Origin: Brevundimonas sp. SL130
GTDB lineage: Bacteria; Pseudomonadota; Alphaproteobacteria; Caulobacterales; Caulobacteraceae
Direction: 5' to 3'
DNA length: 64,000 bases
Assembly: GCF_026625805.1 (NCBI RefSeq)
Contig: NZ_CP113064.1
Span: forward strand, 2,146,657 to 2,210,656
The first letter of the stretch is position 1, and every line of letters begins with the position of its first letter. Below the pieces are notes generated by a model. That model was not told where the DNA came from. It searched no databases and saw only the letters and a program-made list of their open reading frames with translations. Positions 19,030 to 40,824 of this stretch are shown here, one piece after another. The translations under genes and the position numbers were made by a program.

Positions 19030-20397
19030 ATGGTCCCAGCCGCCTTTGCGGGCGATGGGCGCACGGACGTCCATGGGGAGACGACTAACTTGGCTTTCGA
19101 CGCGCGTGTATTGATCCTGGCGGCCCAGGATGGCCGGATCGGACCGCTCGCGGCCGGACTGGACGCCCTCGGCTGGACGACCGTCACTGCCCGCGACCTG
19201 GCCGCGGCCGAGGCGACGCTGCAAGACTTCCCGCTGGACGCCGCCGTGATCGATTTCGATTCGTACCAGGACGACGCCGTCGCTCGACTGCGCGCCGCCG
19301 CCCATCCGCGCAGCCTGCCGGTCATGGTGGTCGGCGCCCCGCGCGGTTCCGCGGCCGATGCGGACCTCGCCGTCACCACACCGCCCCATCCCGCCCAGGC
19401 GGCCCTACGCCTGGAGCAGATGACCCGCGCGGCCGTGGCCGAGGAGGAGTTCGATCTTCGCTGCGACACCTTCGCCGCGCGCGGCCTGGATCTACAGCCC
19501 GGCGGCCCCGATCATTCGCCCCTGCGTATTCTGGCCGCCGGCGTGGCCGAGCGCCGCTTCCTGGCCCTGTCCAACGCCCTGACCGCCTCCGGGGTCGAGG
19601 TCGTCGCCGCCCCCACCCCCTACACCGCCTTCGACTATCTGCACGAAAGCCCGTTCGACGCCGCCGTCCTGTGGGGCGCCAAGGACCATGCCCCGGCCCT
19701 GTCCATCGCCTCGGGCATGAAGCGCAACACCCGCCTCTATCACATCCCCCTGATGCTCTATCTCCGGGGCGGCAGCGAGATGAGCCTGGACGAGCTGTTC
19801 AACCGGGGCTTCTCCGACGTCGCCACCGCCGACACCCGCGAAGACGAGACCGCCGAACGCCTGCTGGCCCTGGCCAAGTCGCACCGTCGCTACCTGACCA
19901 TCCGCAAGGCGCTGGATTCGGTTCGTGGCCTGGACATCATGGACCCGACGACCGGCCTGTTCACCCCCGAACTGTTCGCCGCCCACCTGGCGCGGGTCGC
20001 CGACGCCTCGCGCGCCCGGCGACGCCCCCTGTCGGTCTGCGTCCTGCGGGTGCGTGAGAACGAGGCCGTCGCCTGGGCCCGCCAGGGCGGCTGGCTGGAC
20101 CGCGCCCTGCCCCAGATCGGCGCCATGATCTCGCGCCTCGTGCGGGTCGAGGACACTCCGGCCCGCCTGGCCAAGGAAGTCTTCGCCCTGGCCCTGCCGG
20201 CCACACGCGGCGAGGCCGCCCGCCTGGCCGCCGAACGGATCGCCGCCGTCATCGGCTGCACCGCCTTCGACGCCGGCCCCGACCGCTCGCCCTTCGTCGC
20301 CGAATTCGACGTCGGCGCCGCCGAAATGCGCCCCAACGAATCCGCCGGCGCCCTGCTGGAGCGCGCCTCCGCCGATTTGTTCGACAAGGTGCGGTAG
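19030..20397 (+). CDS. REC-REC-GGDEF-like protein with a degenerate GG(D/E)EF motif. PleD/PopA-like architecture.
   Basis: 455 aa from MVPAAF, with an RBS-like aagggg upstream. There are two receiver-like domains (AVIDFD..., LRILAAG...DAAVLWG). The C-terminal GGDEF fold has DPTTGLFTPELF and RPLSVCVLRV, but AKEVF where GGDEF would be. The ORF-track start at 18913 would leave only 5 bp to the divergent gene. Confidence 0.5.
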   Translation: MVPAAFAGDGRTDVHGETTNLAFDARVLILAAQDGRIGPLAAGLDALGWTTVTARDLAAAEATLQDFPLDAAVIDFDSYQDDAVARLRAAAHPRSLPVMVVGAPRGSAADADLAVTTPPHPAQAALRLEQMTRAAVAEEEFDLRCDTFAARGLDLQPGGPDHSPLRILAAGVAERRFLALSNALTASGVEVVAAPTPYTAFDYLHESPFDAAVLWGAKDHAPALSIASGMKRNTRLYHIPLMLYLRGGSEMSLDELFNRGFSDVATADTREDETAERLLALAKSHRRYLTIRKALDSVRGLDIMDPTTGLFTPELFAAHLARVADASRARRRPLSVCVLRVRENEAVAWARQGGWLDRALPQIGAMISRLVRVEDTPARLAKEVFALALPATRGEAARLAAERIAAVIGCTAFDAGPDRSPFVAEFDVGAAEMRPNESAGALLERASADLFDKVR

Positions 20398-20546
20398 GGT
20401 TGGATCATGTCCCCCTCGGGCAGATGTGCGAAAGGCCCAAAAGTTGCGCGCCGTAACGTTTCCGAGAGCGGAAATCGACGATTGAACCAAAGCGCGTCTT
20501 CGAGCCGTTGCGAACGAGAGAGTACAGCCAACGCTATGCTTCGATC

Positions 20547-21281
20547 ATGACAAAAGCAGGTCACCCCTCACTCGTTCGCGATATTCGCTTCTTCACCGGC
20601 AGCAGCTACACTTGCGGATGCCACGAGGCGACTGCGTTTGGGCGGCGAGTTTCATTCCTCCTACGATCTCGCGGCTACAGCTTTGGGTCTTGGCACCATC
20701 TCTACATACGCACAGTCGAGGGTGATCAGGCTGACACCCCCGTCGTGGCGTTGGAGGGCTTCGAGTGGTGGCATCGATTCGTCGAGGTCGCTGTTCCGCC
20801 AGGATTTGCCGCAATGGACGAAGGCAAGCGAACACAACTTTTGATTGCCCGAACCAAGCACGTACTAAGATCGCTCTTTCCCAATAATGGCAGCGTGCTC
20901 GAAGAAGTACTCGCCGAGGCCGAGCGAGAACGGGATCGCCTACGTTTTCTGATAAAGCGAAAAAAAATCGGCAATCAAAGCGTGGAAGCGAGTTTCAACC
21001 TGGCCACCTGGCCAGCCCCCTCAGATCTCATCCTTGTCATAAAAGACCACAAAGCAAGTATTTGTCTATCTTCAGCAAGGATCGAGCTAGAATTTTACGC
21101 TGACGCCTTCAGCCTAGTCGGCGACATACGCCGAGAGGGCGAAACTGTAAAAATAGTCCCGAAGACGTCTTTCACAGCGCAGTTGGTGGCGACGCGGTAT
21201 GAGACGTCACTCACCCTTCCTCTGACGACCTTTAGAGCATGGCTCGCTTTGACGGAATCGGGATTCCCAAGTTTGCGGTGA
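20547..21281 (+). CDS. Hypothetical protein with no recognisable domain, in low-GC (about 52%) DNA next to IS630.
   Basis: 244 aa from MTKAGHPSL. Base composition differs sharply from its surroundings. The stop codon TGA is formed at the left terminus of the adjacent IS. Confidence 0.45.
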   Translation: MTKAGHPSLVRDIRFFTGSSYTCGCHEATAFGRRVSFLLRSRGYSFGSWHHLYIRTVEGDQADTPVVALEGFEWWHRFVEVAVPPGFAAMDEGKRTQLLIARTKHVLRSLFPNNGSVLEEVLAEAERERDRLRFLIKRKKIGNQSVEASFNLATWPAPSDLILVIKDHKASICLSSARIELEFYADAFSLVGDIRREGETVKIVPKTSFTAQLVATRYETSLTLPLTTFRAWLALTESGFPSLR

Positions 21282-22316
21282 TCTGATTCAACATTCGTGC
21301 TGGATGGGAGGCCAGCCCGGATGACGGCTCCTTATTCGATGGATCTTCGTGAGCGAGCGTTGGCGCGTAAGGCGGAGGGCGAGACACACCGGGAGATCGC
21401 GGCGGCGCTTCGGATCAGTCCGTCTTGCGTGTCCAAGTGGACGAAGCGAGTTGGAGAGACAGGTTCGGTGGCGCCGGGCCAGGTCGGCGGCCACAAGCCT
21501 CGCACGCTATCAGGAGACTGCGCCGAATGGCTGCGCACCCGCATCGCCTCAGGGCCGTTCACGCTCAGAGGGCTGACGGCCGAACTTGCCGCGCGCGGGA
21601 TCAAGACCGGCCCTCGAGCGGTGTGGGTGTTCGTGCACGCTGAAGGACTGAGCTTCAAAAAAAACACTGCTGCCTGAGGAGCAGGCCCGGCCTGACGTCG
21701 CGCGCCGCCGCGCACGCTGGAAGGCGCATCAGGGGCGGATCGACCCGTCGCGACTGGTGTTCCTGGACGAGACCTGGGTCAAGACCAACATGGCGCCCTT
21801 GCGCGGCTGGGGGCCGAGGGGGCGACGCTTGAAGGGCCACTCGCCCTTCGGTCACTGGAAAACCCTGACCTTCATCGCCGCCCTGCGCCATGACCGGATC
21901 GACGCGCCCTGGGTTATCGATGGTCCGATCAACGGCGCGATCTTCCTCGTCTACATCGAGAAAATACTGGCGCCGACCTTGTCGCCTGGCGACGTCGTCG
22001 TCCTCGACAACCTCGGCAGTCACAAGGGCAAGGCCGCCCGCGCCGCTGTCAGGGCCAAAGGCGCACACATGATCTTCCTGCCCCCTTACTCCCCCGACCT
22101 GAACCCCATCGAACAGGTCTTCGCCAAGCTCAAACACCTCATGCGCAACGCCCAGCCCAGAACCTTTGAAGCCACATGGCGAAAGGCCGGAGAGATCATC
22201 AATCTCTTCAGCCCCGCCGAATGTGCGAACTACCTCGTCAACTCAGGATACGGTTCCGTGTGAAGGAAGCACGCTCTAGCCCGCTCGTTTGCCTCCCTCC
22301 CACGTCGCATCTGATC
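21280..22316 (+). mobile_element. IS630-family insertion sequence, about 1.04 kb
   Basis: The ends are imperfect inverted repeats: GATCTGATTCAACATTCG...GGGAGGC on the left, and on the right the reverse complement of GCCTCCC...CGCATCTGATC. The transposase is internal. Boundaries are approximate. Confidence 0.65.
21297..22263 (+). CDS. IS630-family DDE transposase. The two ORFs join by a +1 shift at an A8 run (TTCAAAAAAAAC, about 21655-21666).
   Basis: orfA (HTH, MTAPYSMDLRERALARKAEGETHREIAAAL) ends just after the A8 run. Removing one A gives a continuous ...FKKTLLPEEQARPDVARRRARWKAHQGRIDPSRLVFLDETWVKTNM..., which matches IS630 transposases. orfB carries the DDE region (DNLGSHK...PPYSPDLNPIE). 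Confidence 0.7.
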
Positions 22317-22529
22317 GCGGGGCCCCTGATATAAGGCGGGACTCGGTACGCCCGCTTTACACGTCAAACAGACCATCAACGTGTCCGCTTACAGGCAGGC
22401 GGCCGGCCCCTTGCCCGCGGCGATGCGTCCTTGTCGTTTCATGCCTTGAGCTGGCGACCAGACGATCCACCGTACTGCGCCCGCGATACACCCGATCCTT
22501 GCCCCCAAGAACGAGCCGCGGCGGGAACC

Positions 22530-30511: not shown

Positions 30512-30796
30512 ACGAAAGGCGGCGCATCGCTGCGATCGTGCGACAATCCGGACCTCGTCAGAGGGCGTGGAGCAGACTTCATCCCCCCAGTCGAGTTTCG
30601 CCGAATGCCGCATCCGGCGGAAGGCATGCCGCCTTGCTCGCCGGTCCAACAGTTACGCTACGCGCCAGATCGGTCATTCACTGTCGGCCCCAAACGCGAC
30701 ATTCAGCGCGCGGCTCGAAAGTCGGGTTTCCGGCCGCTAGCATAAGACGGTTCGCGACCCGTTGCGGCCATTGGTGGCTTAAGGCACAAGCGATGC

Positions 30797-31126
30797 ATGA
30801 ATGACGCAGCCTTCGTTGAGCGCACGTTTGAAAGTGGCGACGACAAGATAACGATCCGCTTTCTGCAGCCTACTTTAGCTCCGGGCGGCGAGTATCAGTG
30901 CCGATGGGCAATCAACTGGCCCAATGGAGTTCGGCAACGCTATTCATGTGGTTTGGACGGTATTCAAGCGCTCATGTTGGCAATGAAGATGGTTCACTCG
31001 GAGCTGGTGGATAGCGACCTCTACAAGTCGGGAAAGCTGACATACGTCGATCAGTATGATTTGGACCTACCACCCGGCTGGGGCGAAGGTCAGTTGTATG
31101 TGCCACCGGAAGAGAACGGCAGCTAA
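30797..31126 (+). CDS. small hypothetical protein (109 aa) directly upstream of the flotillin gene
   Basis: ORF with the lower GC of the islet. It has no TM helix or signal peptide and I recognise no domain. Confidence 0.5.
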   Translation: MNDAAFVERTFESGDDKITIRFLQPTLAPGGEYQCRWAINWPNGVRQRYSCGLDGIQALMLAMKMVHSELVDSDLYKSGKLTYVDQYDLDLPPGWGEGQLYVPPEENGS

Positions 31127-31307
31127 CCACCCCTTGCCGACCTCCAGGGAGTCCGCTCATGGGCTCTCCCACGAAAGTCTGGTTTCGGTGATCCTGCCTA
31201 CGACGCACCCACCCCGCCACCCGCCTAGCCGGCGGCTGAACAGCCTCTCGCAATAGTTGCGCCCCACGGCCTTTATAGACATAGTCCGGCCAGTATCGGG
31301 GGACCAT

Positions 31308-32693
31308 ATGAACATCTACATCATCGCCGGCGGCGTAGCGCTCGGCGTCTTCGTCATTGGATTCCTGATCGCGTTGGTTCTGCGCCGGGTGGTCCCGACC
31401 AACGAAGTTCACATCGTCCAGCGCGGGCGGTCTCGCGTCAGCTACGGCGCCAGTCAGTCGGCCGGAAACGTCTACTACGAGTGGCCGGCCTTCCTGCCCA
31501 GGATCGGCGTCCTGGTGACCAAGTTCCCGGTCTCCATATTTGACGTGAACCTGAAAGACTACGAAGCCTACGACACCGGGCGCCTCCCGTTCCGGGTGGA
31601 CGTCCAGGCGTTCATGCGGATCGCAAAATCGGATACGGCGGCGGAAAAGGTCGCCAATTTCGACGAGCTGCAACATCAGCTGTCCGGCATCCTTCAGGGC
31701 GCCGTCCGGAACGTGCTGGCCACCCACAAGCTCGAAGACATCCTCGAAGCCCGATCAACCCTGGCCGAGGCCTTTACCGCCCAGGTGGACAATCAGCTTC
31801 AGGCGTGGGGCGTCGAGACGGTCAAGAACATCGAGTTCATGGACATCCGCGACAGCGCCAACTCGCAGGTCATCGCCAACATCATGGCGAAGGAGAAATC
31901 CCGCATTGATCGCGAGAGCCGCGAGGCCGTGGCGATGAACAGCCAGTTTGCCCAGACCAAGGAGATCGAGGCCCAACGCATCGTCGAGGTGAACAAGCAG
32001 GATGCTTTGCAGCAGGTCGGAATGCGGACGGCCGAGCAGGAGAAGCAGGTCGGTATCGCCAAGCAGGTCGCCGAACAGCAGGTTCTGGTCGCCCAGAGGG
32101 ACACCACCGAACGTGAAATGGATGTGAAGCTGGTCGCCGATACGCGCTCCGCCGACATCGCCAAGGGGGTCGCGGAAGTTCAGGCCGCGCAGGAGCGCGA
32201 GGTCACGATCATCCGGGCGGAGGGGCAGCGCCAACAGCAGGTCATCGCCGCAGAGGCTGAACGTCAACGGCTGGAGCTGGTCGCGCAAGGAACCCTGGCC
32301 CAGCAGAAGCTCGACGCCGAAGGACTACTGGCGCAGGGCCAGAGCCGCGCCGAAGCCGAGCGGCTCCTGCTTCTGGCGCCGGTCTCGACGCAGATCGAAC
32401 TCGCCAAGGAGATCGGCGGCAACGACGGCTACCAGACCTACTTGGTGCGCGTGGAGCAGATCAAAGCCGGGCAGGCCGTGGGCGTCGCCCAGGCTGAGGC
32501 CCTGAGCGCCGCCGACATCAAGGTGATCGTGACCGGCGGCGACGTGCCCCAGGGTATGAACAGCATCACCGACGTGTTCAGCGCGCGGGGCGGCCAAGCC
32601 CTCGGCGCGATGCTGGAGGGGCTGGCTCAGACCGACGCCGGCAAGGCCGTGGTGGAGCGGGCAACCAAGGGCGCTGCAAAGCTCAAAGAGTAG
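31308..32693 (+). CDS. flotillin-like SPFH/band-7 domain protein (FloT/YqiK family)
   Basis: 461 aa from MNIYIIAGG. An N-terminal TM helix, an SPFH domain and a long EA-rich coiled-coil flotillin tail (AEQEKQVGIAKQVAEQQ...). Confidence 0.8.
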   Translation: MNIYIIAGGVALGVFVIGFLIALVLRRVVPTNEVHIVQRGRSRVSYGASQSAGNVYYEWPAFLPRIGVLVTKFPVSIFDVNLKDYEAYDTGRLPFRVDVQAFMRIAKSDTAAEKVANFDELQHQLSGILQGAVRNVLATHKLEDILEARSTLAEAFTAQVDNQLQAWGVETVKNIEFMDIRDSANSQVIANIMAKEKSRIDRESREAVAMNSQFAQTKEIEAQRIVEVNKQDALQQVGMRTAEQEKQVGIAKQVAEQQVLVAQRDTTEREMDVKLVADTRSADIAKGVAEVQAAQEREVTIIRAEGQRQQQVIAAEAERQRLELVAQGTLAQQKLDAEGLLAQGQSRAEAERLLLLAPVSTQIELAKEIGGNDGYQTYLVRVEQIKAGQAVGVAQAEALSAADIKVIVTGGDVPQGMNSITDVFSARGGQALGAMLEGLAQTDAGKAVVERATKGAAKLKE

Positions 32694-32768
32694 CGTCGTA
32701 CAGGTCCGTCCGGCCGCCGACGGGAATGTCAGTAAGTAGCACCGCTCTCAACGTCGGCTTCCCACCCG

Positions 32769-33206
32769 TTGCGGACATTCAGCGCGACGGGCAGGTTCGG
32801 CGCCTGTGAATGCGCGAGGGGCTTTTCGACCGTGGAACATAAAGAGGTTTTAGCCCGCGCGCCTGGCTCTTTCATATTGGTTGGCGGTAGCGTGGAAGTC
32901 GATGCTCCCCCGTTTGGGGACGGTCCGGCCCGGCTCTGGGCCGATGAGCGTTGCGTCTGCATTGGAACCCTCGCTGAGGTCGATGGGCACGCGCGAGTGA
33001 TTGTCGGATCGAATGTTGATCACGCTAACCTCGCGCTAGCCTTCAGCGGTGAAATCTCCACTCCGGCCCGGCGACTGGTGGTTAGCGACGCTGAACTGAA
33101 CACGCTGATCGAAGTCGCCGTTCCTACCCAACTGACCAGCCTCTCGATCTGGACGAACGACGCCCGCGAACCAACCATGATCGCAATCAACGTCACGGAT
33201 CGTTAG
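32769..33206 (+). CDS. Hypothetical protein. Start uncertain: TTG at 32769, or the GTG 22 codons downstream.
   Basis: ORF in the islet. No recognisable domain. Followed directly by a full copy of the islet repeat. Confidence 0.4.
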   Translation: MRTFSATGRFGACECARGFSTVEHKEVLARAPGSFILVGGSVEVDAPPFGDGPARLWADERCVCIGTLAEVDGHARVIVGSNVDHANLALAFSGEISTPARRLVVSDAELNTLIEVAVPTQLTSLSIWTNDAREPTMIAINVTDR

Positions 33207-33324
33207 GTCCGCTTTCCACCCCTAGCCGCAGTTCGGCGGGTCCGCTTTTGGGCTGTGGTGCCGATGTCCGCTTTCCGCGCTGGTGTCGATGTCGTGGTCC
33301 GACCCATAGCGGACGTTTAGGGGC
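33207..33324. repeat. Islet-specific 118-bp intergenic repeat, full copy 1. Three direct GTCCGCTTT(C/T)C iterons plus a terminal inverted GCGGACGTT.
   Basis: About 90% identical to 34726-34840. Iterons start at 33207, 33240 and 33267, and an inverted GCGGAC at 33309. It begins immediately after a stop codon. Confidence 0.6.
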
Positions 33325-33694
33325 GCGTTTCTGCTTCTCGGAGCATTTGGTCGAAGACTTCCTCGGATAATTTCTTGAGGTCTTCGAACGCCGGAGCGGT
33401 TGATCGTTGATCACCGTTGCCCTCGCCGCTGATCCGGAGGCCTCGATCAGTCTTAGTAATTGTGAAGACGAATGGCGTCGCCGGGTTATCCGGAGCCGAG
33501 ACCACAATCAGCGTCCGCCGGTCATCACATCCGTAGGTCAGCCACTCGGTGCCGCCGAACGAGCGTTGTATCGGCCCACTCATGCATTGCAGCGGTTTCG
33601 CAGCGGGCTTATGATCCTGTTGAACAGGCAAAGTCAGCAGGGCAAATGCAATCACTGGCACGATTATTGGCACGGTTCGGTCCCCCAATTTCAC
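33317..33694 (-). CDS. small secreted hypothetical protein
   Basis: 125 aa. Predicted signal peptide MKLGDRTVPIIVPVIAFALLTLPV. Divergent from the next small secreted ORF. Confidence 0.5.
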   Translation of the reverse strand: MKLGDRTVPIIVPVIAFALLTLPVQQDHKPAAKPLQCMSGPIQRSFGGTEWLTYGCDDRRTLIVVSAPDNPATPFVFTITKTDRGLRISGEGNGDQRSTAPAFEDLKKLSEEVFDQMLREAETRP

Positions 33695-33785
33695 ATTGGA
33701 TCATGTAAAGGCCGATTTCCATCCGCAGTCGAACTTCCGCTTTCGACCCATTGCAGACGTTGGCCGATTGAACTTAGGAGAGCTG

Positions 33786-34178
33786 ATGATCATCGCCACG
33801 ATGTTGTTCGCTTTCTATCAATCGGCACCGCCTGCCGCAGCGCGGCCTGAACCTGCCGTCTGTGAACTATCCGAGCGTGACCTAGCGACAGGATCTCGGC
33901 TTTGGTGCCCTGCCGAGCTCCAGAGACGAGTGCCGCAAAGCCTCATGACGACGATGCCCATCGATGGGATCGGCAAGGGATGGGCGCTGTTGAAATGCGA
34001 CCTCGGCGAAGGTGGCGTAACGACGGCGTGCAGTCTCGTCGATGAGTCGGAACCGGGTTCTTCGTTCGGCGCATGGGCGAAACGCGTTCAGCTCAGAGCG
34101 ACTGCTCAGAGCACCGATGGCAGTTTTCCCCCTGTGGGCGATAGCTACTACGCCTTTGCTCGATGGGAGGTTCGCTAG
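33786..34178 (+). CDS. small secreted hypothetical protein
   Basis: 130 aa from ATG with aggaga 5 nt upstream. Hydrophobic N-terminus MIIATMLFAFYQSAPPAAA followed by a Cys-containing mature part. Confidence 0.5.
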   Translation: MIIATMLFAFYQSAPPAAARPEPAVCELSERDLATGSRLWCPAELQRRVPQSLMTTMPIDGIGKGWALLKCDLGEGGVTTACSLVDESEPGSSFGAWAKRVQLRATAQSTDGSFPPVGDSYYAFARWEVR

Positions 34179-34299
34179 CGTCTGCTTCACTCACCTAGCG
34201 GACGAAGGCATCGACCGCTTTCCAAACTGGCCGTCATTGTCTCTTTGCAGCAGTGACGTCCAAGACCGAAATCGACCCATTGCGGACGTTGAAGCCCCG

Positions 34300-34719
34300 A
34301 TGCCAAATGATCGAATGGAAGCGACCCCTTCGAGCCGGATCATCGACCAACGCGTCCGAAACAGGATTATGGAGGAATTGCTTGGGCTGGCAGAAGGCGA
34401 CGAGAGCGTTCGCCGCATAGGTGCCGGAGAATACTTCGAAGCCTTCTATGACTGGGTTCCGCATCGCGGCGATGGCATCAGACCGAATAGCGCGCTGACG
34501 CAGGATGAAGCCGCTCTTATCCTCAAAGTCAGCATCGCTCTGGACGAGGCATGTGACGCAACGCCTAAAATGGTGTCGACTCAAGAACTTATAGCTACCG
34601 GTTGGCCTGAACGGATTAAGCCACTCGCCCGATCCGCACTGGACCAGATGCTGAAGCGAGGCCGGTTTAGAGAAGAAATCGAAGAAGATGAGCCGTCATC
34701 AACCGCTCTTTGGCCTTGA
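34300..34719 (+). CDS. hypothetical cytoplasmic protein
   Basis: 139 aa from MPNDRMEATP. Acidic, no TM. Followed by repeat copy 2. Confidence 0.45.
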   Translation: MPNDRMEATPSSRIIDQRVRNRIMEELLGLAEGDESVRRIGAGEYFEAFYDWVPHRGDGIRPNSALTQDEAALILKVSIALDEACDATPKMVSTQELIATGWPERIKPLARSALDQMLKRGRFREEIEEDEPSSTALWP

Positions 34720-34725
34720 AGGGAC

Positions 34726-34840
34726 GTCCGCTTCCCACCCCTAGCGGCAGTTCGGCACGTCCGCTTTTGGGCTGTGAGGCCGATGTCCGCTTTCCGCGTT
34801 GGTGTAAATGTCGTGGTCCGACCCAGAGCAGACCATGGAT
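34726..34840. repeat. Islet-specific intergenic repeat, full copy 2
   Basis: GTCCGCTTCCCACCCCTAGCGGCAGTTCGGCACGTCCGCTTTTGGGCTGTGAGGCCGATGTCCGCTTTCCGCGTTGG...GTCCGACCCAGAGCAGAC. About 90% identical to 33207-33324. Confidence 0.6.
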
Positions 34841-34882
34841 AGCCAGCTTGTTTGACAGAACCAGACAAGGCACGGTCCATCC

Positions 34883-35161
34883 ATGACGCTAGCGCGCTAT
34901 CCCCTCGCAGTTCCGGCAGATCGGTTAGTTGCGGACATCGAAGCGCGACTAACTGCCGACCCAGATGGCCGTGTTGGATACGAGTGCCTGTTCATCACGA
35001 CGATATCCACCAGACCAGCGATGGCGTTCGAACTATTCCCGGAAGCGTTGAGGGCTCCAGGCTGGAAAGCGCACGTTGTCGAACAGCTGAGCCGGGCGGA
35101 ACGCGATGCTCGAGACGGCGAGGCGGTCTACTTCGAGCCCTATGGAGAAAATGTCCGCTAA
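34883..35161 (+). CDS. hypothetical protein (92 aa)
   Basis: ORF MTLARYPLAVPADRLVADIEARL... in the islet. A partial repeat copy (GTCCGCTAACC...GTCCGCTTTCCAGCGCG) follows its stop. Confidence 0.45.
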   Translation: MTLARYPLAVPADRLVADIEARLTADPDGRVGYECLFITTISTRPAMAFELFPEALRAPGWKAHVVEQLSRAERDARDGEAVYFEPYGENVR

Positions 35162-35430
35162 CCACCGCGAACAGATGTCCGGTACGTCCGCTTTCCAGCG
35201 CGCCCCTGCTGAATGCAAATGTGAGGAGAGCGGTTCGTATAGATGAACCAAGGACGGCAAACGACGCTTACCGCTCCTAATTTTCCGAAATGACGCTAAT
35301 CATTTCAACGCCCTAACGCGCCCGAACGGCCATCGACCAACCACGCCCCCGAGACTGTGCTAGCCTCGTCGTCCGGTCTTTGACATCGGGCGCGCGCCGC
35401 AGTCCGCCTGCGCCGTCCGCTCCCCATCAA

Positions 35431-35625
35431 CGCCACAGTCGTCGCCCCTGGCGCGTTTGGCGCCTTTGGCACGGTTGTCACCCTGTTTTCGCGCCAAACC
35501 GACCGGCCTCAGCCGATCATAAAGCCGCAGCCGTCGCCCATGGCGCATTTGGCGGTTTGTCACCCTGTTTTTACGACAGGCCTGCCAAAACTCAGCCGAT
35601 CATGCAGCGCCAGCCGTCGAACCCG
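35431..35625. repeat. Tandem duplication of about 2.4 copies, period about 83 bp, of the 3' end of the MBL-fold hydrolase gene. att-like.
   Basis: Units ...TTGTCACCCTGTTTT(C/T)...CTCAGCCGATCAT(A/G)...GCAGCCGTCG(C/A)... The last copy runs into the gene's final 11 codons and its stop. Confidence 0.5.
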
Positions 35626-36386
35626 ACCTCGACATTGGCCGGAACAATCGCCGACAGTTCCTTGTAATCCATGTCGATATGCAGGTTCGTCAGCACGGCC
35701 CGCTCGACATCCGCCGCCGCAATCCACTCCAGCGTCCGGTCCAGATGGGCATGGGTCGGATGGGGGGTGTAGCGCAGGGCGTCGACGATCCAGACCTGGC
35801 AACCCGCCACCGCACGGATCGCCGCCTCGTCCAGGTCCGACACGTCGCTGGAATAGACCATGTCGCCCAGCCGATAGCCGACCGACCGGATCGGCCCGTG
35901 CCCCTGATCGAAGGTCACGACCGGGATCGCGCCCCCCGGCCCCTCCACCGACCAGTCCGTCCCGTGGGGCGGAATGACCTGGGCGTCCAGCAGCGGCGGA
36001 TAGCCGAACTTGCTCTCGAAGATATAGTCGAACCGGTGCGACAGGGACGTCAGGGTCGCCTCATCCATCCAGGCCGGGATCCGCTTGCGCGCCCGCGTCG
36101 CGAAGGTCCGCAGATCGTCGATCCCGTGGGTCTGGTCCGCATGGTCGTGGGTATAGAGGACGGCGTCCACATGCCGGGTCTCGCTGGCCAGCATCTGTTC
36201 GCGCAGGTCCGGCGAGGTGTCGATCAGGATGTTGGTCATCCCCTCCGGCCCGGTCTTCCGCGCCAGCATCGAGCAGCGCGTGCGCCGGTTCCTCGGCTCG
36301 GCCGGGTCGCACACGCCCCAGTCGCCGTCGCCCCGCGGCACCCCGCCCGAGGATCCGCTGCCCAGGATGACGACTTCGAAACTCAT
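35592..36386 (-). CDS. MBL-fold metallo-hydrolase (PhnP-like)
   Basis: 264 aa. Metal-binding HxHxDH motif (YTHDHADQTHGIDD). Confidence 0.75.
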   Translation of the reverse strand: MSFEVVILGSGSSGGVPRGDGDWGVCDPAEPRNRRTRCSMLARKTGPEGMTNILIDTSPDLREQMLASETRHVDAVLYTHDHADQTHGIDDLRTFATRARKRIPAWMDEATLTSLSHRFDYIFESKFGYPPLLDAQVIPPHGTDWSVEGPGGAIPVVTFDQGHGPIRSVGYRLGDMVYSSDVSDLDEAAIRAVAGCQVWIVDALRYTPHPTHAHLDRTLEWIAAADVERAVLTNLHIDMDYKELSAIVPANVEVGFDGWRCMIG

Positions 36387-38823: not shown

Positions 38824-39657
38824 TTAGCCGCCGGATATCAACAGAGCGTCCGCATATCCGCGCGCCACGACCGCCTGACGGGCCGCTTCCGCCGCATTGG
38901 CGTCGATCCAGGGCCCGACCAGAACCCGATATCCGCCGCTGCTGGCGTCCACGGTCGCCCGCGCGCCCAGTCGCCCAGCGATTCGCCGCGCCGCCGCCTG
39001 ATCCGAAAACGACCCGGCCTGCACCCAATAGGAGCCGCTTCCGCTCACCAACGCCGTCGCTTCGATGGGCGCAGTCGGTGGCGCGGGCTGATACGGCCTA
39101 GCCGTGGTGGATTGCGCCGAAGGCGGCGGCGCTTCCGCCCTCAGCACCGTCCCTCCGCCCAGCCTTGGCGCTCGCCCAAGGTAGCGAACCCGCACCCGGC
39201 CCACGCCTTGCCGCAGCATATCCAGCTCCTGCGCCGCCCCCCGCGACAGATCGATGATCCGACCATCGACGAACGGCCCGCGATCATTGACCCGCACGAT
39301 GATCCGCCGTCCGTTCTCCAGATTGGTGACTTCCACCAGACCCGGCAGAGGCAAGGTCTTGTGCGCCGCCGTCAGCTGGCTCATGTCGAACCGCTCGCCG
39401 GTCGAGGTCGGCCGCCCGTTGAAGGCGTCGCCATACCAGGAGGCCATGCCGACCTCCTCATAGTCCGGCTGTTCCTTGGGCGTGTACCACCGCCCGCGCA
39501 CCTGATAGGGCCGCATCGTCCCCGACACGATCGGCGCCGGATCCTTGACCACCGGCACAGCCCCGCCGCCTCGCCCGGCGCCCAATGTCGAACAGGCTGC
39601 CAGCAACGAGAACAGCCCCAAAGTCAGGCCGCTCCGCACCCATTGTCCAACTCGCAT
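38824..39657 (-). CDS. rlpA: septal ring lytic transglycosylase RlpA family protein with a C-terminal SPOR domain
   Basis: 277 aa. Lipoprotein signal (LLAACS), a DPBB domain ([20 protein letters not shown]) and a SPOR tail. Confidence 0.8.
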
Positions 39658-39768
39658 CGGTACGCCTCGTCACAATCGTCCAAAAAAGAGGATGACCGAA
39701 GACATTTCCGCTTTGGTTAACGCCCCCTTCCCCTGCTATGGCGTCCGCCCGACCGGGCGATCCGGCAA

Positions 39769-39858
<90 letters not shown>

Positions 39859-40159
39859 ATAGCGTTGATTTTATTGCGAAAATTGGAAGATTTTCCTCAC
39901 ACCCACCTAACAGCCCGCCTACCGGATAACGATTGAGACGCCGTTTCAGGACGGTTCAGGCGTGTTCATTTCGCCTGGCCAAAGCCCTGCTCGGCGAGAT
40001 CGCTGTCGTTCGAGCGAAGCGATTCTACCCGCGCTGTCGCCGGGAAACGGCTTCAGCGGCCCCGGCATACCCGTGATCCGCAGACAGGCGTATGGCTCCG
40101 GGTATTCGCACTTGAAACGTTGCAAGGCGTTCCACAGGCAAGAGGCTTGGGCTCAGGAC

Positions 40160-40486
40160 TCATAGCCAGAAGAGCACGGTTGCGGCGAGGGCTATGGCGG
40201 ACAGGAAGACGGTTGGGCAGCGATCGTAGCGGGTTGCGACCCGTCGCCAGTCTTTCAGGCGTCCAAACATGATTTCTATGCGGTTCAACCCTTTCAACTC
40301 GATATCCCACACAAAATACCGCTCTGGGCCCGCCACCAGGGCGTCTACGGCCCGTTTGGTCAATTTCGTGGTCACCGTATGGTCACCAGACATTTCGCCT
40401 CCGTCCCGCCACAGCGGGTTTTGAACGCCCATTTTGGTGACCACATGGTCACCACTTGGGAGCAAATCGGAGGATAAGGCGGTCAT
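40160..40486 (-). pseudogene. IS5-family (DDE_Tnp_1) transposase remnant. Only the C-terminal region is recognisable.
   Basis: C-terminal ...YFVWDIELKGLNRIEIMFGRLKDWRRVATRYDRCPTVFLSAIALAATVLFWL matches the IS5-family IERxFxxLKxxRRIATRYDK signature. The N-terminal part is not transposase-like and contains GGTNACC palindromes. Confidence 0.5.
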
Positions 40487-40511
40487 CCCGAGCCATCGCC
40501 CTTTGCCCAGT

Positions 40512-40640
40512 TTACGCCATCAAAACAGGCACTTGGGAAACATCGGGAAACCCGAGGGTTCGAGCTCGATGTCCCAGTAGAGGTAGGTGACCGGGCAGAT
40601 ATGGGCGGCGACCACCTTGGCCTCTCTGCCCGCAACGCCC
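40512..40640 (-). pseudogene. second short IS5-family remnant (duplicate of the YxxWDIEL segment)
   Basis: Minus-strand translation ...AHICPVTYLYWDIELEPSGFP resembles the same transposase region as 40160-40486. Truncated. Confidence 0.3.
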
Positions 40641-40824
40641 GTCGACATCCCACAGGGTGCAAACGGATTCAGCCAGTCCAAAAATGCCATTCCTTTCACC
40701 TTTAGCCGATCTGTCCGCCAGCTTCAGGAGAAGAGTGTCAGCGACGCCAGTTTCCGCCAACCCTTACGGCGCGCGCATCGATAAAATGGCGAACAAGCCC
40801 TCAGCTACCGGCCCCGCCGATGGG

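What the first reader, a model, noticed from the sequence alone, without database searches (positions are those of the whole stretch)
30520..35300. Lower-GC accessory islet: unknown small protein + flotillin + five small unrelated ORFs, two of them secreted
Between a conserved FAD-oxidoreductase gene and the rlpA-tmk-holB-tatD-MBL cluster, GC content drops visibly. The seven genes in between are either unrecognisable or, in the case of the flotillin, not part of the surrounding conserved synteny. They are 30797-31126, 31308-32693, 32769-33206, 33317-33694 (minus), 33786-34178, 34300-34719 and 34883-35161. Every intergenic spacer carries copies of one repeat family, described separately below. 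A tight cluster of small diverse ORFs separated by a shared repeat is the layout of cassette arrays. Integron cassettes and orphan immunity-gene arrays look like this, as do some defence islands. No integrase, toxin or known defence gene is present, so if it is a system it is not one I can name.
Basis: partly seen in the sequence, partly recalled or inferred. Interest (0 to 1): 0.7.

Follow-up and report, generated by a model that had tools for sequence, protein, structure and literature searches.

The report
Repeat-bounded gene cassette array in Brevundimonas
A 4.9-kb strain-specific insert in a Brevundimonas chromosome is a chain of single-gene cassettes separated by one family of hairpin-like repeats. 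The same kind of array turns out to be widespread in Alphaproteobacteria, a group reported to lack integrons.

Summary
Window 30530-35397 (Brevundimonas sp. SL130) is a low-GC insert (58.5% without the flotillin segment; flanks 69%) between an FAD-oxidoreductase gene and an MBL-hydrolase gene. The site is empty in 5 of the 6 nearest species. The sixth holds a different gene between the same terminal repeats.

All eight spacers carry one repeat family. Its ~34-nt unit U is CTAATGTCCGC-TTTCSACCCATT-GCGGACATTAG; a ~115-nt composite has four units.

ORF1, ORF4 and ORF5 recur at unrelated loci in other genomes, each with flanking repeat units. ORF1 also occurs in Sphingomonadales. The flotillin gene is a captured copy (88% DNA identity) of a core locus.

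In 470 kb of metagenome contigs, U units are co-oriented (162:8), spaced ~490 bp apart, and separate diverse small ORFs. Homology breakpoints pile up at U (32 observed, 3.1 expected).

It is not an integron: attC boxes are absent, ORFs point either way, and no IntI gene lies nearby. It also does not fit BIME layout, known defence systems or immunity families.

Most likely these are mobile repeat-bounded cassettes recombined at U by an unidentified trans-acting enzyme. Passive REP-like repeats plus homologous recombination is the main rival. I found no published description.

The parts
30530..35397 (.). Whole insert relative to the empty sites of related genomes (about 4.87 kb)
   Evidence: Alignment to the empty FADox-MBL spacers of L001-L004 and L006 ends near 30526-30536 and resumes near 35398.
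30530..30774 (+). Left arm, shared with B. intermedia CCUG 45022. It ends in a 3' half (units c+d) of the repeat at 30715-30774.
   Evidence: Homology between the window and L005 runs through this arm and stops at 30767, inside unit d. nhmmer matches model positions 61-120.
30797..31126 (+). ORF1, a DUF6968 protein (109 aa). Its stop codon lies inside repeat unit a.
   Evidence: Pfam PF22302, 79.9 bits. It has 50 homologue clusters, including Sphingomonadales at 77-79% identity, which have U units on their flanks at other loci. AF2 pLDDT is 83.7, with no convincing fold match.
31121..31205 (+). Repeat S1: units a, b and part of c, degenerate
   Evidence: nhmmer E 1.2e-9, model positions 11-95.
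31243..32725 (+). Captured copy of the core flotillin locus. ORF2 is 31308-32693 (SPFH/Band_7, 461 aa) with 65 bp of its own upstream region.
   Evidence: 88% DNA identity to the efp-suhB-flotillin locus of other Brevundimonas (L217-L220), which has no repeats there. Codon score is native, 0.46 per codon like FADox at 0.41, against 0.06 or less for the small ORFs. Band_7 E 2e-17.
32719..32781 (+). Repeat S2: a single U unit plus a degenerate c unit
   Evidence: nhmmer model positions 58-120; core pattern match at 32754-32779.
32892..33206 (+). ORF3 (104 aa as annotated by PGAP; the frame is open from 32769). Function unknown.
   Evidence: The exact sequence is WAC58685. Its 90% cluster holds 131-151-aa versions in other Brevundimonas genomes. 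No Pfam or PDB match.
33203..33320 (+). Repeat S3: full composite (units a-b-c-d)
   Evidence: nhmmer E 2e-28; alignments.
33317..33673 (-). ORF4 (118 aa) with an N-terminal hydrophobic segment. It is antisense to the repeats.
   Evidence: 18 homologue clusters. Homologues lie at three other kinds of locus, always antisense to the flanking repeats, with unit d abutting the stop codon.
33708..33764 (+). Repeat S4: two tandem U-type units (c+d)
   Evidence: nhmmer model positions 65-121; direct-repeat family D3.
33786..34178 (+). ORF5 (130 aa), a small exported protein with a TonB-C-terminal-like fold
   Evidence: 22 homologue clusters, four invariant Cys. AF2 pLDDT 86.8. The top 18 PDB fold hits are TonB or TolA C-terminal domains. 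It occurs as a single cassette between a 3' half and a 5' half in B. mediterranea, and as a two-gene unit in B. bullata.
34176..34295 (+). Repeat S5: full composite
   Evidence: nhmmer E 4.8e-24.
34315..34719 (+). ORF6 (134 aa), member of an uncharacterised family
   Evidence: 218 representative clusters at E<=1e-3, typical length 125-135 aa. No Pfam hit for any of 25 members and no PDB match.
34723..34841 (+). Repeat S6: full composite, 90% identical to S3
34883..35161 (+). ORF7 (92 aa), a doubtful gene. Its stop codon lies inside unit a of S7.
   Evidence: Not annotated by PGAP and a singleton in the collection. No family match.
35149..35200 (+). Repeat S7: terminal 5' half (units a+b)
   Evidence: nhmmer model positions 4-55. 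Homology with L005 resumes here, at 35154.
35201..35397 (+). Right arm, non-coding. Shared with B. intermedia CCUG 45022 and absent from the empty sites.
20462..22400 (+). Second variable hotspot of the same kind. It holds a 257-aa low-GC ORF and an IS630-type transposase between degenerate repeat ends (20494-20520 and 22352-22400).
   Evidence: This is the only other break in the collinearity between the window and L005. L005 holds two other cassettes here, with a full composite between them. Pfam gives HTH_23 and DDE_3.

Best explanation
The segment is a strain-specific array of about seven single-gene cassettes, assembled in an intergenic insertion hotspot between two core genes. Each cassette is bounded by one repeat family. 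The unit U is a ~34-nt imperfect palindrome, CTAATGTCCGC-TTTCSACCCATT-GCGGACATTAG. A ~115-nt composite has four units: a is a complete U, b and c keep the GTCCGCTT arm, and d is a complete U.

Cassettes are individually mobile. Each gene travels with the right part of the upstream U and the left part of the downstream U, and is found at unrelated loci in other genomes and orders. Arrays are polar: they start with c+d, have full a-b-c-d composites internally, and end with a+b.

Inferred mechanism: cassettes are excised and inserted head-to-tail by recombination at the repeats, carried out by an enzyme encoded elsewhere in the genome. Candidates are a small tyrosine recombinase, an IS110/IS1111-type recombinase or an HUH Y1 transposase. 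In addition, whole array contents are swapped between strains by ordinary homologous recombination in the conserved arms and flanking core genes.

Cargo is diverse: DUF6968, a captured core flotillin, an exported TonB-C-like protein and three unknowns. It does not form one functional system.

What is shown: the accessory status, the repeat anatomy, the recurrence of cassettes with their repeats, the clustering of breakpoints at U, the polarity, and the wide distribution. What is inferred: site-specific catalysis and the identity of the enzyme.
For: Accessory status. The site is empty in L001-L004 and L006. L005 has a different gene between the same terminal repeat halves.

Repeats in the window. 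Every spacer has a family member, all on the + strand, and the family is confined to the two variable regions of the 64 kb.

ORF5. A 92%-identical ORF5 cassette sits between a PAS/HWE kinase gene and a GH3 gene in B. mediterranea, flanked by a 3' half and a 5' half. DNA identity of 93% runs exactly from the loop of the upstream U (33742) to the left arm of the downstream U (34202). A 73%-identical copy lies at a third locus in B. bullata between the same kinds of halves.

ORF4. Homologues lie at three other kinds of locus, including a six-element array (L216), always in the same orientation relative to the repeats.

ORF1. Homologues in Sphingomonadales are flanked by U units.

Flotillin. It is a copy of a core locus, placed between two repeat elements.

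Metagenomes. There are 289 U units in 470 kb against 0 in shuffles. Neighbours are co-oriented 162:8, median spacing is 490 bp, and one ORF fills about 84% of each interval.

Breakpoints. 32 of 191 internal homology endpoints fall within 20 nt of a U centre, against 3.1 expected (p 7e-23).

Polarity. 5' halves have a further element downstream in 5 of 25 cases, 3' halves in 25 of 32 (Fisher p 1.5e-5).

Recombinase leads. An IS110-family IS is inserted in the loop of a U unit in one strain. Such elements are known to target REP and attC-like sites (PMC1525189). An IS110 transposase can move transposase-less modules as circles (PMC12288879).
Against: No recombinase recurs next to the arrays and none lies within about 8 kb on either side of the islet.

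The small tyrosine recombinase found at two array termini is not flanked by U in five plasmid homologues.

No conserved target motif or target-site duplication was seen beyond the terminal halves.

Hairpin covariation is weak and single-strand folding is not better than shuffles for the window copies.

The loci examined were chosen around one gene or around a repeat match. Genome-wide distribution, and therefore the claim that the repeat is tied to accessory DNA, is untested.

BLAST endpoints are drawn towards any conserved repeat, which could inflate the breakpoint enrichment.

Exchange by RecA on 27-115-bp repeats could produce much of the pattern without a dedicated enzyme.
Confidence: 0.55

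Rival explanations
1. The repeats are passive REP-like repeats and recombination is only homologous. U is an ordinary extragenic palindrome, for example an mRNA-stabilising or protein-binding element, that is common in the donor lineages. The islet is horizontally acquired DNA that brought its intergenic repeats along. Contents change by RecA-mediated exchange in flanking core genes, as with Neisseria minimal mobile elements, and occasionally between repeat copies. No repeat-specific enzyme is involved.
For: U has the size and form of a REP. The arms and flanks of the hotspot are collinear at 94-95% identity between SL130 and CCUG 45022 while the interior differs, as expected for replacement through flanking homology. 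No recombinase is associated. Covariation does not show a selected hairpin.
Against: Neighbouring units are co-oriented 162:8, whereas REPs in BIMEs alternate (PMC2817692). Identical cassettes with repeat halves sit at unrelated loci that share no other homology. Array ends are polar. One repeat occurs per gene at about 0.5-kb period. In the 64-kb window the repeats are absent from about 57 kb of core DNA.
Confidence: 0.3
2. It is an integron-type cassette array without an integrase (a CALIN), the repeats being divergent attC sites acted on by an IntI encoded elsewhere.
For: The array consists of small, diverse, mostly unknown ORFs, each followed by a repeat of 60-120 nt. Cassette period is about 0.5 kb. 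Stop codons overlap the start of the repeat, as they often do in attC.
Against: Of 334 U units, none has both the RYYYAAC and GTTRRRY boxes, and none of the window elements has them in place. The basic unit is 34 nt. ORFs point either way relative to the repeat (72:57 and 22:15). Arrays end in half elements. There are many small arrays at many loci. The IntegronFinder survey found no integron, In0 or CALIN in 243 alphaproteobacterial genomes (PMC4889954).
Confidence: 0.03
3. The seven genes form one functional system, such as a defence island, an orphan immunity-gene array or a flotillin-associated membrane module, and the repeats are incidental.
For: Genes are tightly packed, six of seven on one strand. 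Two products appear to be exported. Small unknown proteins are typical of immunity arrays.
Against: No PADLOC, Pfam immunity or toxin family matched. The genes do not travel together: ORF1, ORF4, ORF5 and the flotillin each have different neighbours elsewhere. Codon usage differs between the flotillin and the rest.
Confidence: 0.05
4. The small ORFs are not genes, and the region is decaying non-coding repeat DNA.
For: The codon model trained on core genes scores the small ORFs near zero or below. ORF7 is unannotated and a singleton.
Against: ORF1, ORF3, ORF4, ORF5 and ORF6 belong to length-conserved families with 6 to 218 clusters. ORF1 and ORF5 give confident AF2 models. ORF5 has invariant cysteines.
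Confidence: 0.02

Closest known systems
Integron cassette arrays and CALINs (clusters of attC sites lacking an integrase)
   Same: Chains of promoter-poor, mostly unknown single-gene cassettes of about 0.5 kb. Each is bounded by a palindromic site that often overlaps the stop codon. Sites are co-oriented within an array. Cassette content differs between close strains. The same cassette appears in different arrays.
   Different: The site has a different sequence and size: a 34-nt unit without R'/R'' boxes. ORFs are not co-oriented with the sites. Arrays are short, numerous, scattered between core genes, and end in half elements. There is no IntI. Integrons, In0 and CALINs were reported absent from Alphaproteobacteria (PMC4889954).
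Neisseria intergenic mosaic elements (dRS3/RS arrays) and minimal mobile elements
   Same: A short unit made of two 6-bp inverted arms around a fixed spacer (dRS3 is ATTCCC-N8-GGGAAT; here GTCCGC-N12-GCGGAC). It forms arrays between conserved genes at sites whose content differs between strains. It is the target of an IS110-type recombinase. dRS3 was proposed to be a recombinase binding site that promotes exchange of adjacent genes (PMC1797815).
   Different: In Neisseria the intervals are mostly 50-150-bp non-coding RS elements, not genes. The lineage and sequence are different. The polarity of the arrays and the four-unit composite have no counterpart that I know of.
REP / BIME / REPIN elements with RAYT transposases
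   Same: An extragenic imperfect palindrome of 20-40 nt. Clusters of units occur. They are a target for IS110-family insertion (PMC1525189).
   Different: BIME units alternate in orientation (PMC2817692), whereas these are co-oriented 162:8. REPINs are inverted doublets without cargo. RAYTs are rare in Alphaproteobacteria (PMC5581495). In this window the units occur only in variable DNA.
Non-autonomous modules moved in trans: mobile insertion cassettes, the ISPpu9 ssr9 module, and IS200/IS605-type PATEs
   Same: A passenger sequence without a transposase lies between two defined, non-identical ends. The ends carry similar hairpins on the same strand, as in IS200/IS605. Head-to-tail junctions look like the RE-LE junction of a circular intermediate (PMC12288879 for IS110 circles).
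   Different: No cognate transposase was identified. No terminal inverted repeats longer than 7 nt, no target duplication and no conserved target were seen. Cargo here is protein-coding genes of many kinds.

Membership tests
Integron / CALIN | attC sites with R'' (RYYYAAC) and R' (GTTRRRY) core boxes at the two ends | tested here: not met
   Of 334 U units, 9 have GTTRRRY within 6 nt 3', 4 have RYYYAAC within 6 nt 5', and none has both. No window element has them in place.
Integron / CALIN | attC of 57-141 nt that folds as a single strand into a paired R/L-box stem | tested here: inconclusive
   The composite is about 115 nt but the basic unit is 34 nt. DNA folding z-scores are -0.45 to -2.96. 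Covariation is no better than shuffles for hairpins a+d and marginal for b:d.
Integron / CALIN | Cassette ORFs co-oriented with the sites | tested here: not met
   The longest ORF is in the same versus opposite orientation 72:57; for codon-scored ORFs the ratio is 22:15. ORF4 is antisense in all four contexts.
Integron / CALIN | IntI integrase next to the array (complete integron only) | tested here: not met
   The flanks are recG, FAD-oxidoreductase and MBL, followed by genes I read as tatD, holB, tmk and rlpA. No Phage_integrase hit among the ORFs tested. The rest of the genome could not be searched.
Integron / CALIN | Detection by IntegronFinder's attC covariance model | not testable with these tools
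   The model is not in Rfam. Rfam scans gave only tRNAs.
REP / BIME | Short extragenic imperfect palindrome | tested here: met
   The consensus is CTAATGTCCGC-TTTCSACCCATT-GCGGACATTAG. All copies are intergenic or overlap only stop codons.
REP / BIME | Units in alternating orientation within clusters | tested here: not met
   Neighbouring units lie on the same strand 162 times and on opposite strands 8 times. The definition is from PMC2817692.
REP / BIME | High copy number dispersed over the genome, with a RAYT gene flanked by the repeat | not testable with these tools
Within the window, copies occur only in the two variable regions.
Mobile insertion cassette / MITE-like element | Terminal inverted repeats of an IS and a target-site duplication | tested here: not met
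   The ends share only GTCCGC/GCGGAC. Sequences beyond the terminal halves show no duplication or motif.
IS200/IS605-type non-autonomous element | Similar subterminal hairpins at both ends on one strand, with no TIR and no duplication | tested here: met
   The left end is c+d and the right end is a+b, each with a U hairpin in the same orientation. This is a resemblance of anatomy only.
IS200/IS605-type non-autonomous element | A Y1 HUH transposase in the host, and a conserved 4-5-nt target 5' of the left end | not testable with these tools
   There is no access to the whole genome. Local-alignment ends are too fuzzy to read a 4-nt target.
SPFH / flotillin (ORF2) | Band_7 domain; FloT equivalog score | tested here: met
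   Band_7 scores 64.2 bits against a cut-off of 23.6. The NCBIfam FloT equivalog is not met, at 13.9 bits against 700. It is therefore an SPFH protein, but not shown to be FloT.
DUF6968 (ORF1) | Pfam PF22302 gathering score | tested here: met
   79.9 bits against a cut-off of 27, covering profile positions 2-89 of 90.
Known anti-phage defence systems | Any PADLOC-DB model | tested here: not met
   No hit at E<=0.1 for any of the seven ORFs.

The most novel reading that the evidence does not exclude
Alphaproteobacteria have their own gene-capture system, analogous to the integron but unrelated to it. Single-gene cassettes bounded by the U hairpin repeat are excised as circles and inserted head-to-tail at many small chromosomal platforms by a dedicated recombinase. 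One candidate is the ~200-aa tyrosine recombinase seen at the termini of two arrays. This would explain why the class lacks integrons.
Probability: 0.3. Interest if true: 0.9.

Novelty: new variant of a known kind. Interest (0 to 1): 0.72.

Why it matters
[quoted passage not shown] A separate family of repeat-bounded cassette arrays in Caulobacterales, Sphingomonadales and soil metagenomes would make that puzzle testable: the class may capture and shuffle small genes by another route.

It would also define a large pool of small, mostly uncharacterised proteins. Examples from this window are DUF6968, the 218-cluster ORF6 family and stand-alone TonB-C-like proteins.

It would point to a possibly new recombination site and enzyme pair.

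From my own knowledge, not tested here, it would also explain the many spurious 'hypothetical proteins' that arise when this repeat is translated.

Practically, it marks insertion hotspots between core genes, which matter for comparative genomics of Brevundimonas.

Tried and rejected
1. Integron attC. Rejected on the core boxes, ORF orientation and unit size.

2. Known RNA family. Rfam at gathering and at E<=5 gave only tRNAs and noise.

3. Terminators or promoters in the spacers. Counts are not above the shuffles.

4. Phage or plasmid origin. There was one viral contig hit for the core pattern and no plasmid hit for the composite.

5. A structured hairpin under selection. Covariation was no better than shuffles for hairpins a and d and marginal for b:d. 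Folding energies of the window copies are ordinary.

6. Replication-linked orientation. GC skew on the U strand is negative in 26 of 46 loci (p 0.46), although 9 of 12 loci of 10 kb or more are negative. Inconclusive.

7. A recurrent gene next to arrays. All-against-all clustering of ORFs in 120 metagenome loci gave no family present in more than 4 loci and no recombinase.

8. IS110 as a general neighbour. It was found only in L082.

9. The small tyrosine recombinase. It sits exactly at the array terminus in L098 and L149. Five plasmid homologues at about 60% identity lack an abutting U. Kept as a lead only.

10. Codon model to assign cassette strand. It was trained on core genes and does not discriminate cassette ORFs, because known-real ORF5 scores negative.

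11. Function of cargo. PDB sequence searches found nothing for six ORFs. The fold search was uninformative for DUF6968.

12. Literature. Searches by sequence strings, REP/RAYT, intergenic mosaic elements, DUF6968 and Brevundimonas found no description of this repeat or of such arrays. The library is partial, so this is not proof of absence.

Full report
SOURCE AND OBSERVATION

Exact protein look-ups place the window in the 3.5-Mb chromosome of Brevundimonas sp. SL130; the islet genes are WAC58683-WAC58688. NCBI's annotation starts ORF3, ORF4 and ORF6 later (32892, 33673 on the minus strand, 34315). It omits ORF7, which has no relatives in the collection.

GC falls from 0.66-0.73 in the flanks to 0.56-0.62 in the islet, with the flotillin gene in between at 0.63-0.68. 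Overall GC is 60.3% for the insert, 58.5% without the flotillin segment, and 69% for the flanks.

ORF1 is a DUF6968 protein and ORF2 an SPFH/Band_7 protein. The other five have no Pfam, NCBIfam or PADLOC match.

IS IT ACCESSORY?

I fetched 80 loci around relatives of the FAD-oxidoreductase from one genome per species and mapped all window genes on them. In the B. intermedia clade, five genomes (L001-L004, L006) have the oxidoreductase and the MBL-hydrolase 70-150 bp apart.

The sixth, B. intermedia CCUG 45022 (L005), has a 1.55-kb insert with a different gene on the other strand. None of the seven ORFs occurs within 10 kb of the oxidoreductase in any of the 80 genomes.

Compared with the empty sites, the insert runs from about 30530 to 35397. 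SL130 and CCUG 45022 are collinear at 94-95% identity through a 240-bp left arm and a 245-bp right arm. They differ completely in between. Homology stops at 30767 and resumes at 35154, in both cases inside a copy of the repeat.

The only other break in collinearity in the shared 22 kb is a second variable site at window 20462-22351. It is again bounded by copies of the same repeat. It is filled with an unknown 257-aa ORF plus an IS630-type element in SL130, and with two other small genes in CCUG 45022.

THE REPEAT

Alignment of 17 full copies from eight sources gives a ~115-nt composite of four units with a 26-33-nt period:

- a = GTCCGCTTnCCACCCnTAGCGGAC
- b = GTCCGCTTnnGGGCGA
- c = AATGTCCGnTTTCnGCC...
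- d = GACCGCTTTCGACCCnTTGCGGAC

Units a and d are complete copies of a basic unit U. Its consensus in independent metagenome copies is CTAATGTCCGC-TTTCSACCCATT-GCGGACATTAG.

A profile of the composite hits all eight spacers of the islet, always on the + strand. The first hit is a 3' half (c+d), the last a 5' half (a+b). S3, S5 and S6 are full. S2 and S4 are one or two U units.

The same order, c+d then full copies then a+b, is seen in L005 (both hotspots), L007, L008, L013, L081, L085, L215 and L216. Over all loci, 5' halves have another element within 1.5 kb downstream in 5 of 25 informative cases, against 25 of 32 for 3' halves (Fisher p 1.5e-5). The halves end and begin near model positions 54 and 65.

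The repeat matches no Rfam family. It is not terminator- or promoter-like above chance. It shows little covariation: the a and d hairpins are no better than shuffles, and a b:d pairing is marginal with one covarying pair. The loop sequence is as conserved as the arms. That points to recognition by a protein rather than to a bare structure; this is my inference.

ARE THE CASSETTES MOBILE?

ORF5. The family has 22 clusters, is 130 aa throughout and has four invariant cysteines. A 92%-identical copy in B. mediterranea lies alone between a PAS/HWE kinase gene and a GH3 gene, flanked by a 3' half and a 5' half. The 93%-identical DNA block runs from the loop of the upstream U (window 33742) to the left arm of the downstream U (34202). 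In B. bullata a 73%-identical copy plus a second gene sits between the same kinds of halves, next to the HU-lon-clpX cluster.

ORF4. The family has 18 clusters. It occurs inside an ICE-like region, next to xerD, and in a six-element array between a transporter and an SDR gene. It is always antisense to the repeats, with unit d abutting its stop codon.

ORF1. It has 77-79%-identical relatives in Qipengyuania, Sphingomonas and Allosphingosinicella, among other small ORFs and flanked by U units.

Flotillin. It has native codon usage: 0.46 per codon against 0.41 for the oxidoreductase and 0.06 or less for the small ORFs. Its orthologues at 90% or more lie in a conserved efp-suhB-flotillin-recN-bamD-prs locus without repeats. 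Window 31243-32725 is 88% identical to that locus, including 65 bp upstream and 32 bp downstream. A core gene copy has therefore been placed between two repeat elements.

HOW GENERAL IS IT?

They hold 289 U units, against none in shuffles. Neighbouring units are on the same strand 162 times and on opposite strands 8 times. Spacing has a median of 490 bp and an interquartile range of 330-700 bp. One ORF fills about 84% of each interval, but it points either way (72:57 by longest ORF; 22:15 for the confidently scored ones).

ORFs are extremely diverse, and no family occurs in more than four loci.

In an all-against-all comparison of the repeat-containing loci, 32 of 191 distinct internal homology endpoints lie within 20 nt of a U centre, where 3.1 are expected (p 7e-23). 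Some pull of alignments towards a conserved repeat is possible. Even so, several pairs are whole cassettes of 340-440 bp bounded by U on both sides in otherwise unrelated contigs.

The pattern is almost absent from viral contigs (one hit). The composite is absent from plasmids at blastn sensitivity.

CARGO

ORF5 gives a confident model (pLDDT 86.8). Its 18 best PDB matches are all TonB or TolA C-terminal domains, with probability about 1 and target TM 0.5-0.6. It is therefore a small exported TonB-C-like protein.

DUF6968 also folds confidently (pLDDT 83.7) but has no convincing structural neighbour.

ORF6 belongs to an unnamed family with 218 clusters at 50% identity. It has no Pfam or PDB match.

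The genes do not co-occur elsewhere, so they are not one system.

WHAT IT IS NOT

attC. None of 334 U units has both core boxes. ORFs are not co-oriented with the sites. Arrays are short, scattered and end in halves. The published survey found no integron-type element in Alphaproteobacteria (PMC4889954).

BIME. REPs alternate in orientation in BIMEs (PMC2817692), and RAYTs are rare in this class (PMC5581495).

MITE or MIC. There are no terminal inverted repeats or target duplications.

MECHANISM

Shown: cassettes are bounded by U-type units. They recur with those units at unrelated sites. Arrays are co-oriented and polar. Exchange junctions fall at U.

Inferred: the polarity is what integration of a circle carrying a contiguous a-b-c-d site gives when the crossover falls between b and c. 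It is equally what head-to-tail insertion of units with a left end c+d and a right end a+b gives. The internal composites would then be the junctions.

Three enzyme classes fit parts of this.

(i) An IS110/IS1111-type recombinase. One such IS (DEDD_Tnp_IS110, with subterminal inverted repeats) sits in the loop of unit a in B. mediterranea CP048751 and is absent from two sister contigs. These enzymes target REPs (PMC1525189) and can move transposase-less modules as circles (PMC12288879).

(ii) An HUH Y1 transposase of the IS200/IS605 or RAYT kind. The two ends carry similar hairpins on one strand.

(iii) A small tyrosine recombinase. A ~200-aa Phage_integrase protein lies exactly at the downstream terminus of the array, convergent with it, in two metagenome contigs. 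In one of them its stop codon abuts a U and another U lies upstream in the opposite orientation. However, five plasmid homologues at about 60% identity show no abutting U.

None of the three is established.

Replacement of whole array contents between strains is most simply explained by homologous recombination in the conserved arms and core flanks. The main rival is that this, plus RecA acting on the repeats themselves, is all there is.

VERDICT

The closest known things are integron and CALIN arrays, and the Neisseria dRS3/NIME arrays with minimal mobile elements (PMC1797815). It works like a mixture of the two and is a member of neither.

I found no description of this repeat or of such arrays in the searchable literature. 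That library is incomplete.

I rate it a new variant of a known kind, with about a 30% chance that it is a distinct cassette-capture system with its own enzyme.

Noticed in passing
window 20462-22400: A second strain-variable hotspot lies between the gene ending at 20397 and the mfd-like gene. It holds a 257-aa low-GC ORF without any family (20508-21281) and an IS630-type transposase split over two frames (21297-21677 and 21757-22263). Degenerate copies of the same repeat bound it. B. intermedia CCUG 45022 has two other small genes there.
   Followed up: partly
window 35473-35554: An 82-bp tandem duplication repeats the last codons of the MBL-hydrolase gene and the spacer. It is present in SL130 and CCUG 45022 and single-copy in L002. 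It could be a scar of an insertion event.
   Followed up: no
L082 10407-11770 (B. mediterranea CP048751): An IS110/IS1111-like insertion sequence (DEDD_Tnp_IS110; subterminal inverted repeat GTGGACGCCCCC; frameshifted transposase) is inserted in the loop of repeat unit a, downstream of the ORF5 homologue. It is absent from the otherwise identical L081 and L083.
   Followed up: partly
L098 3598-4236 (minus) and L149 1325-1933 (plus): A ~200-aa tyrosine recombinase (PF00589) sits exactly at the downstream terminus of a repeat array, convergent with it, in two unrelated metagenome contigs. In L149 the stop codon abuts a U unit and a second U lies upstream in the opposite orientation. Five plasmid homologues lack this arrangement.
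   Followed up: partly
window 39500-40750: A low-GC stretch lies directly after tRNA-Ser (39769-39858). It holds a remnant of an IS5-type transposase (40160-40486, DDE_Tnp_1_2), possibly the stump of another integrated element.
   Followed up: no
L008 11700-15300 (B. staleyi): Four or five paralogous exported proteins lie in tandem downstream of the oxidoreductase gene. Each is preceded by a different conserved ~100-nt element, which reads as ..MGDDPAGPDAGGRGG.. when translated. I did not examine its nature.
   Followed up: no
all loci of 10 kb or more that carry U units: The strand carrying U, as written here, has negative GC skew in 9 of 12 independent long loci, including the window (-0.057). 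Over all 46 loci the split is 26:20. This hints at replication-linked orientation but the analysis is under-powered.
   Followed up: partly
window 35592-36386 (protein cluster of the MBL hydrolase): The 90%-identity cluster of the MBL hydrolase also lists 228-234-aa proteins named 'acyl carrier protein', including one from SL130 itself (WAC60686). This looks like a clustering or naming oddity in the collection.
   Followed up: no
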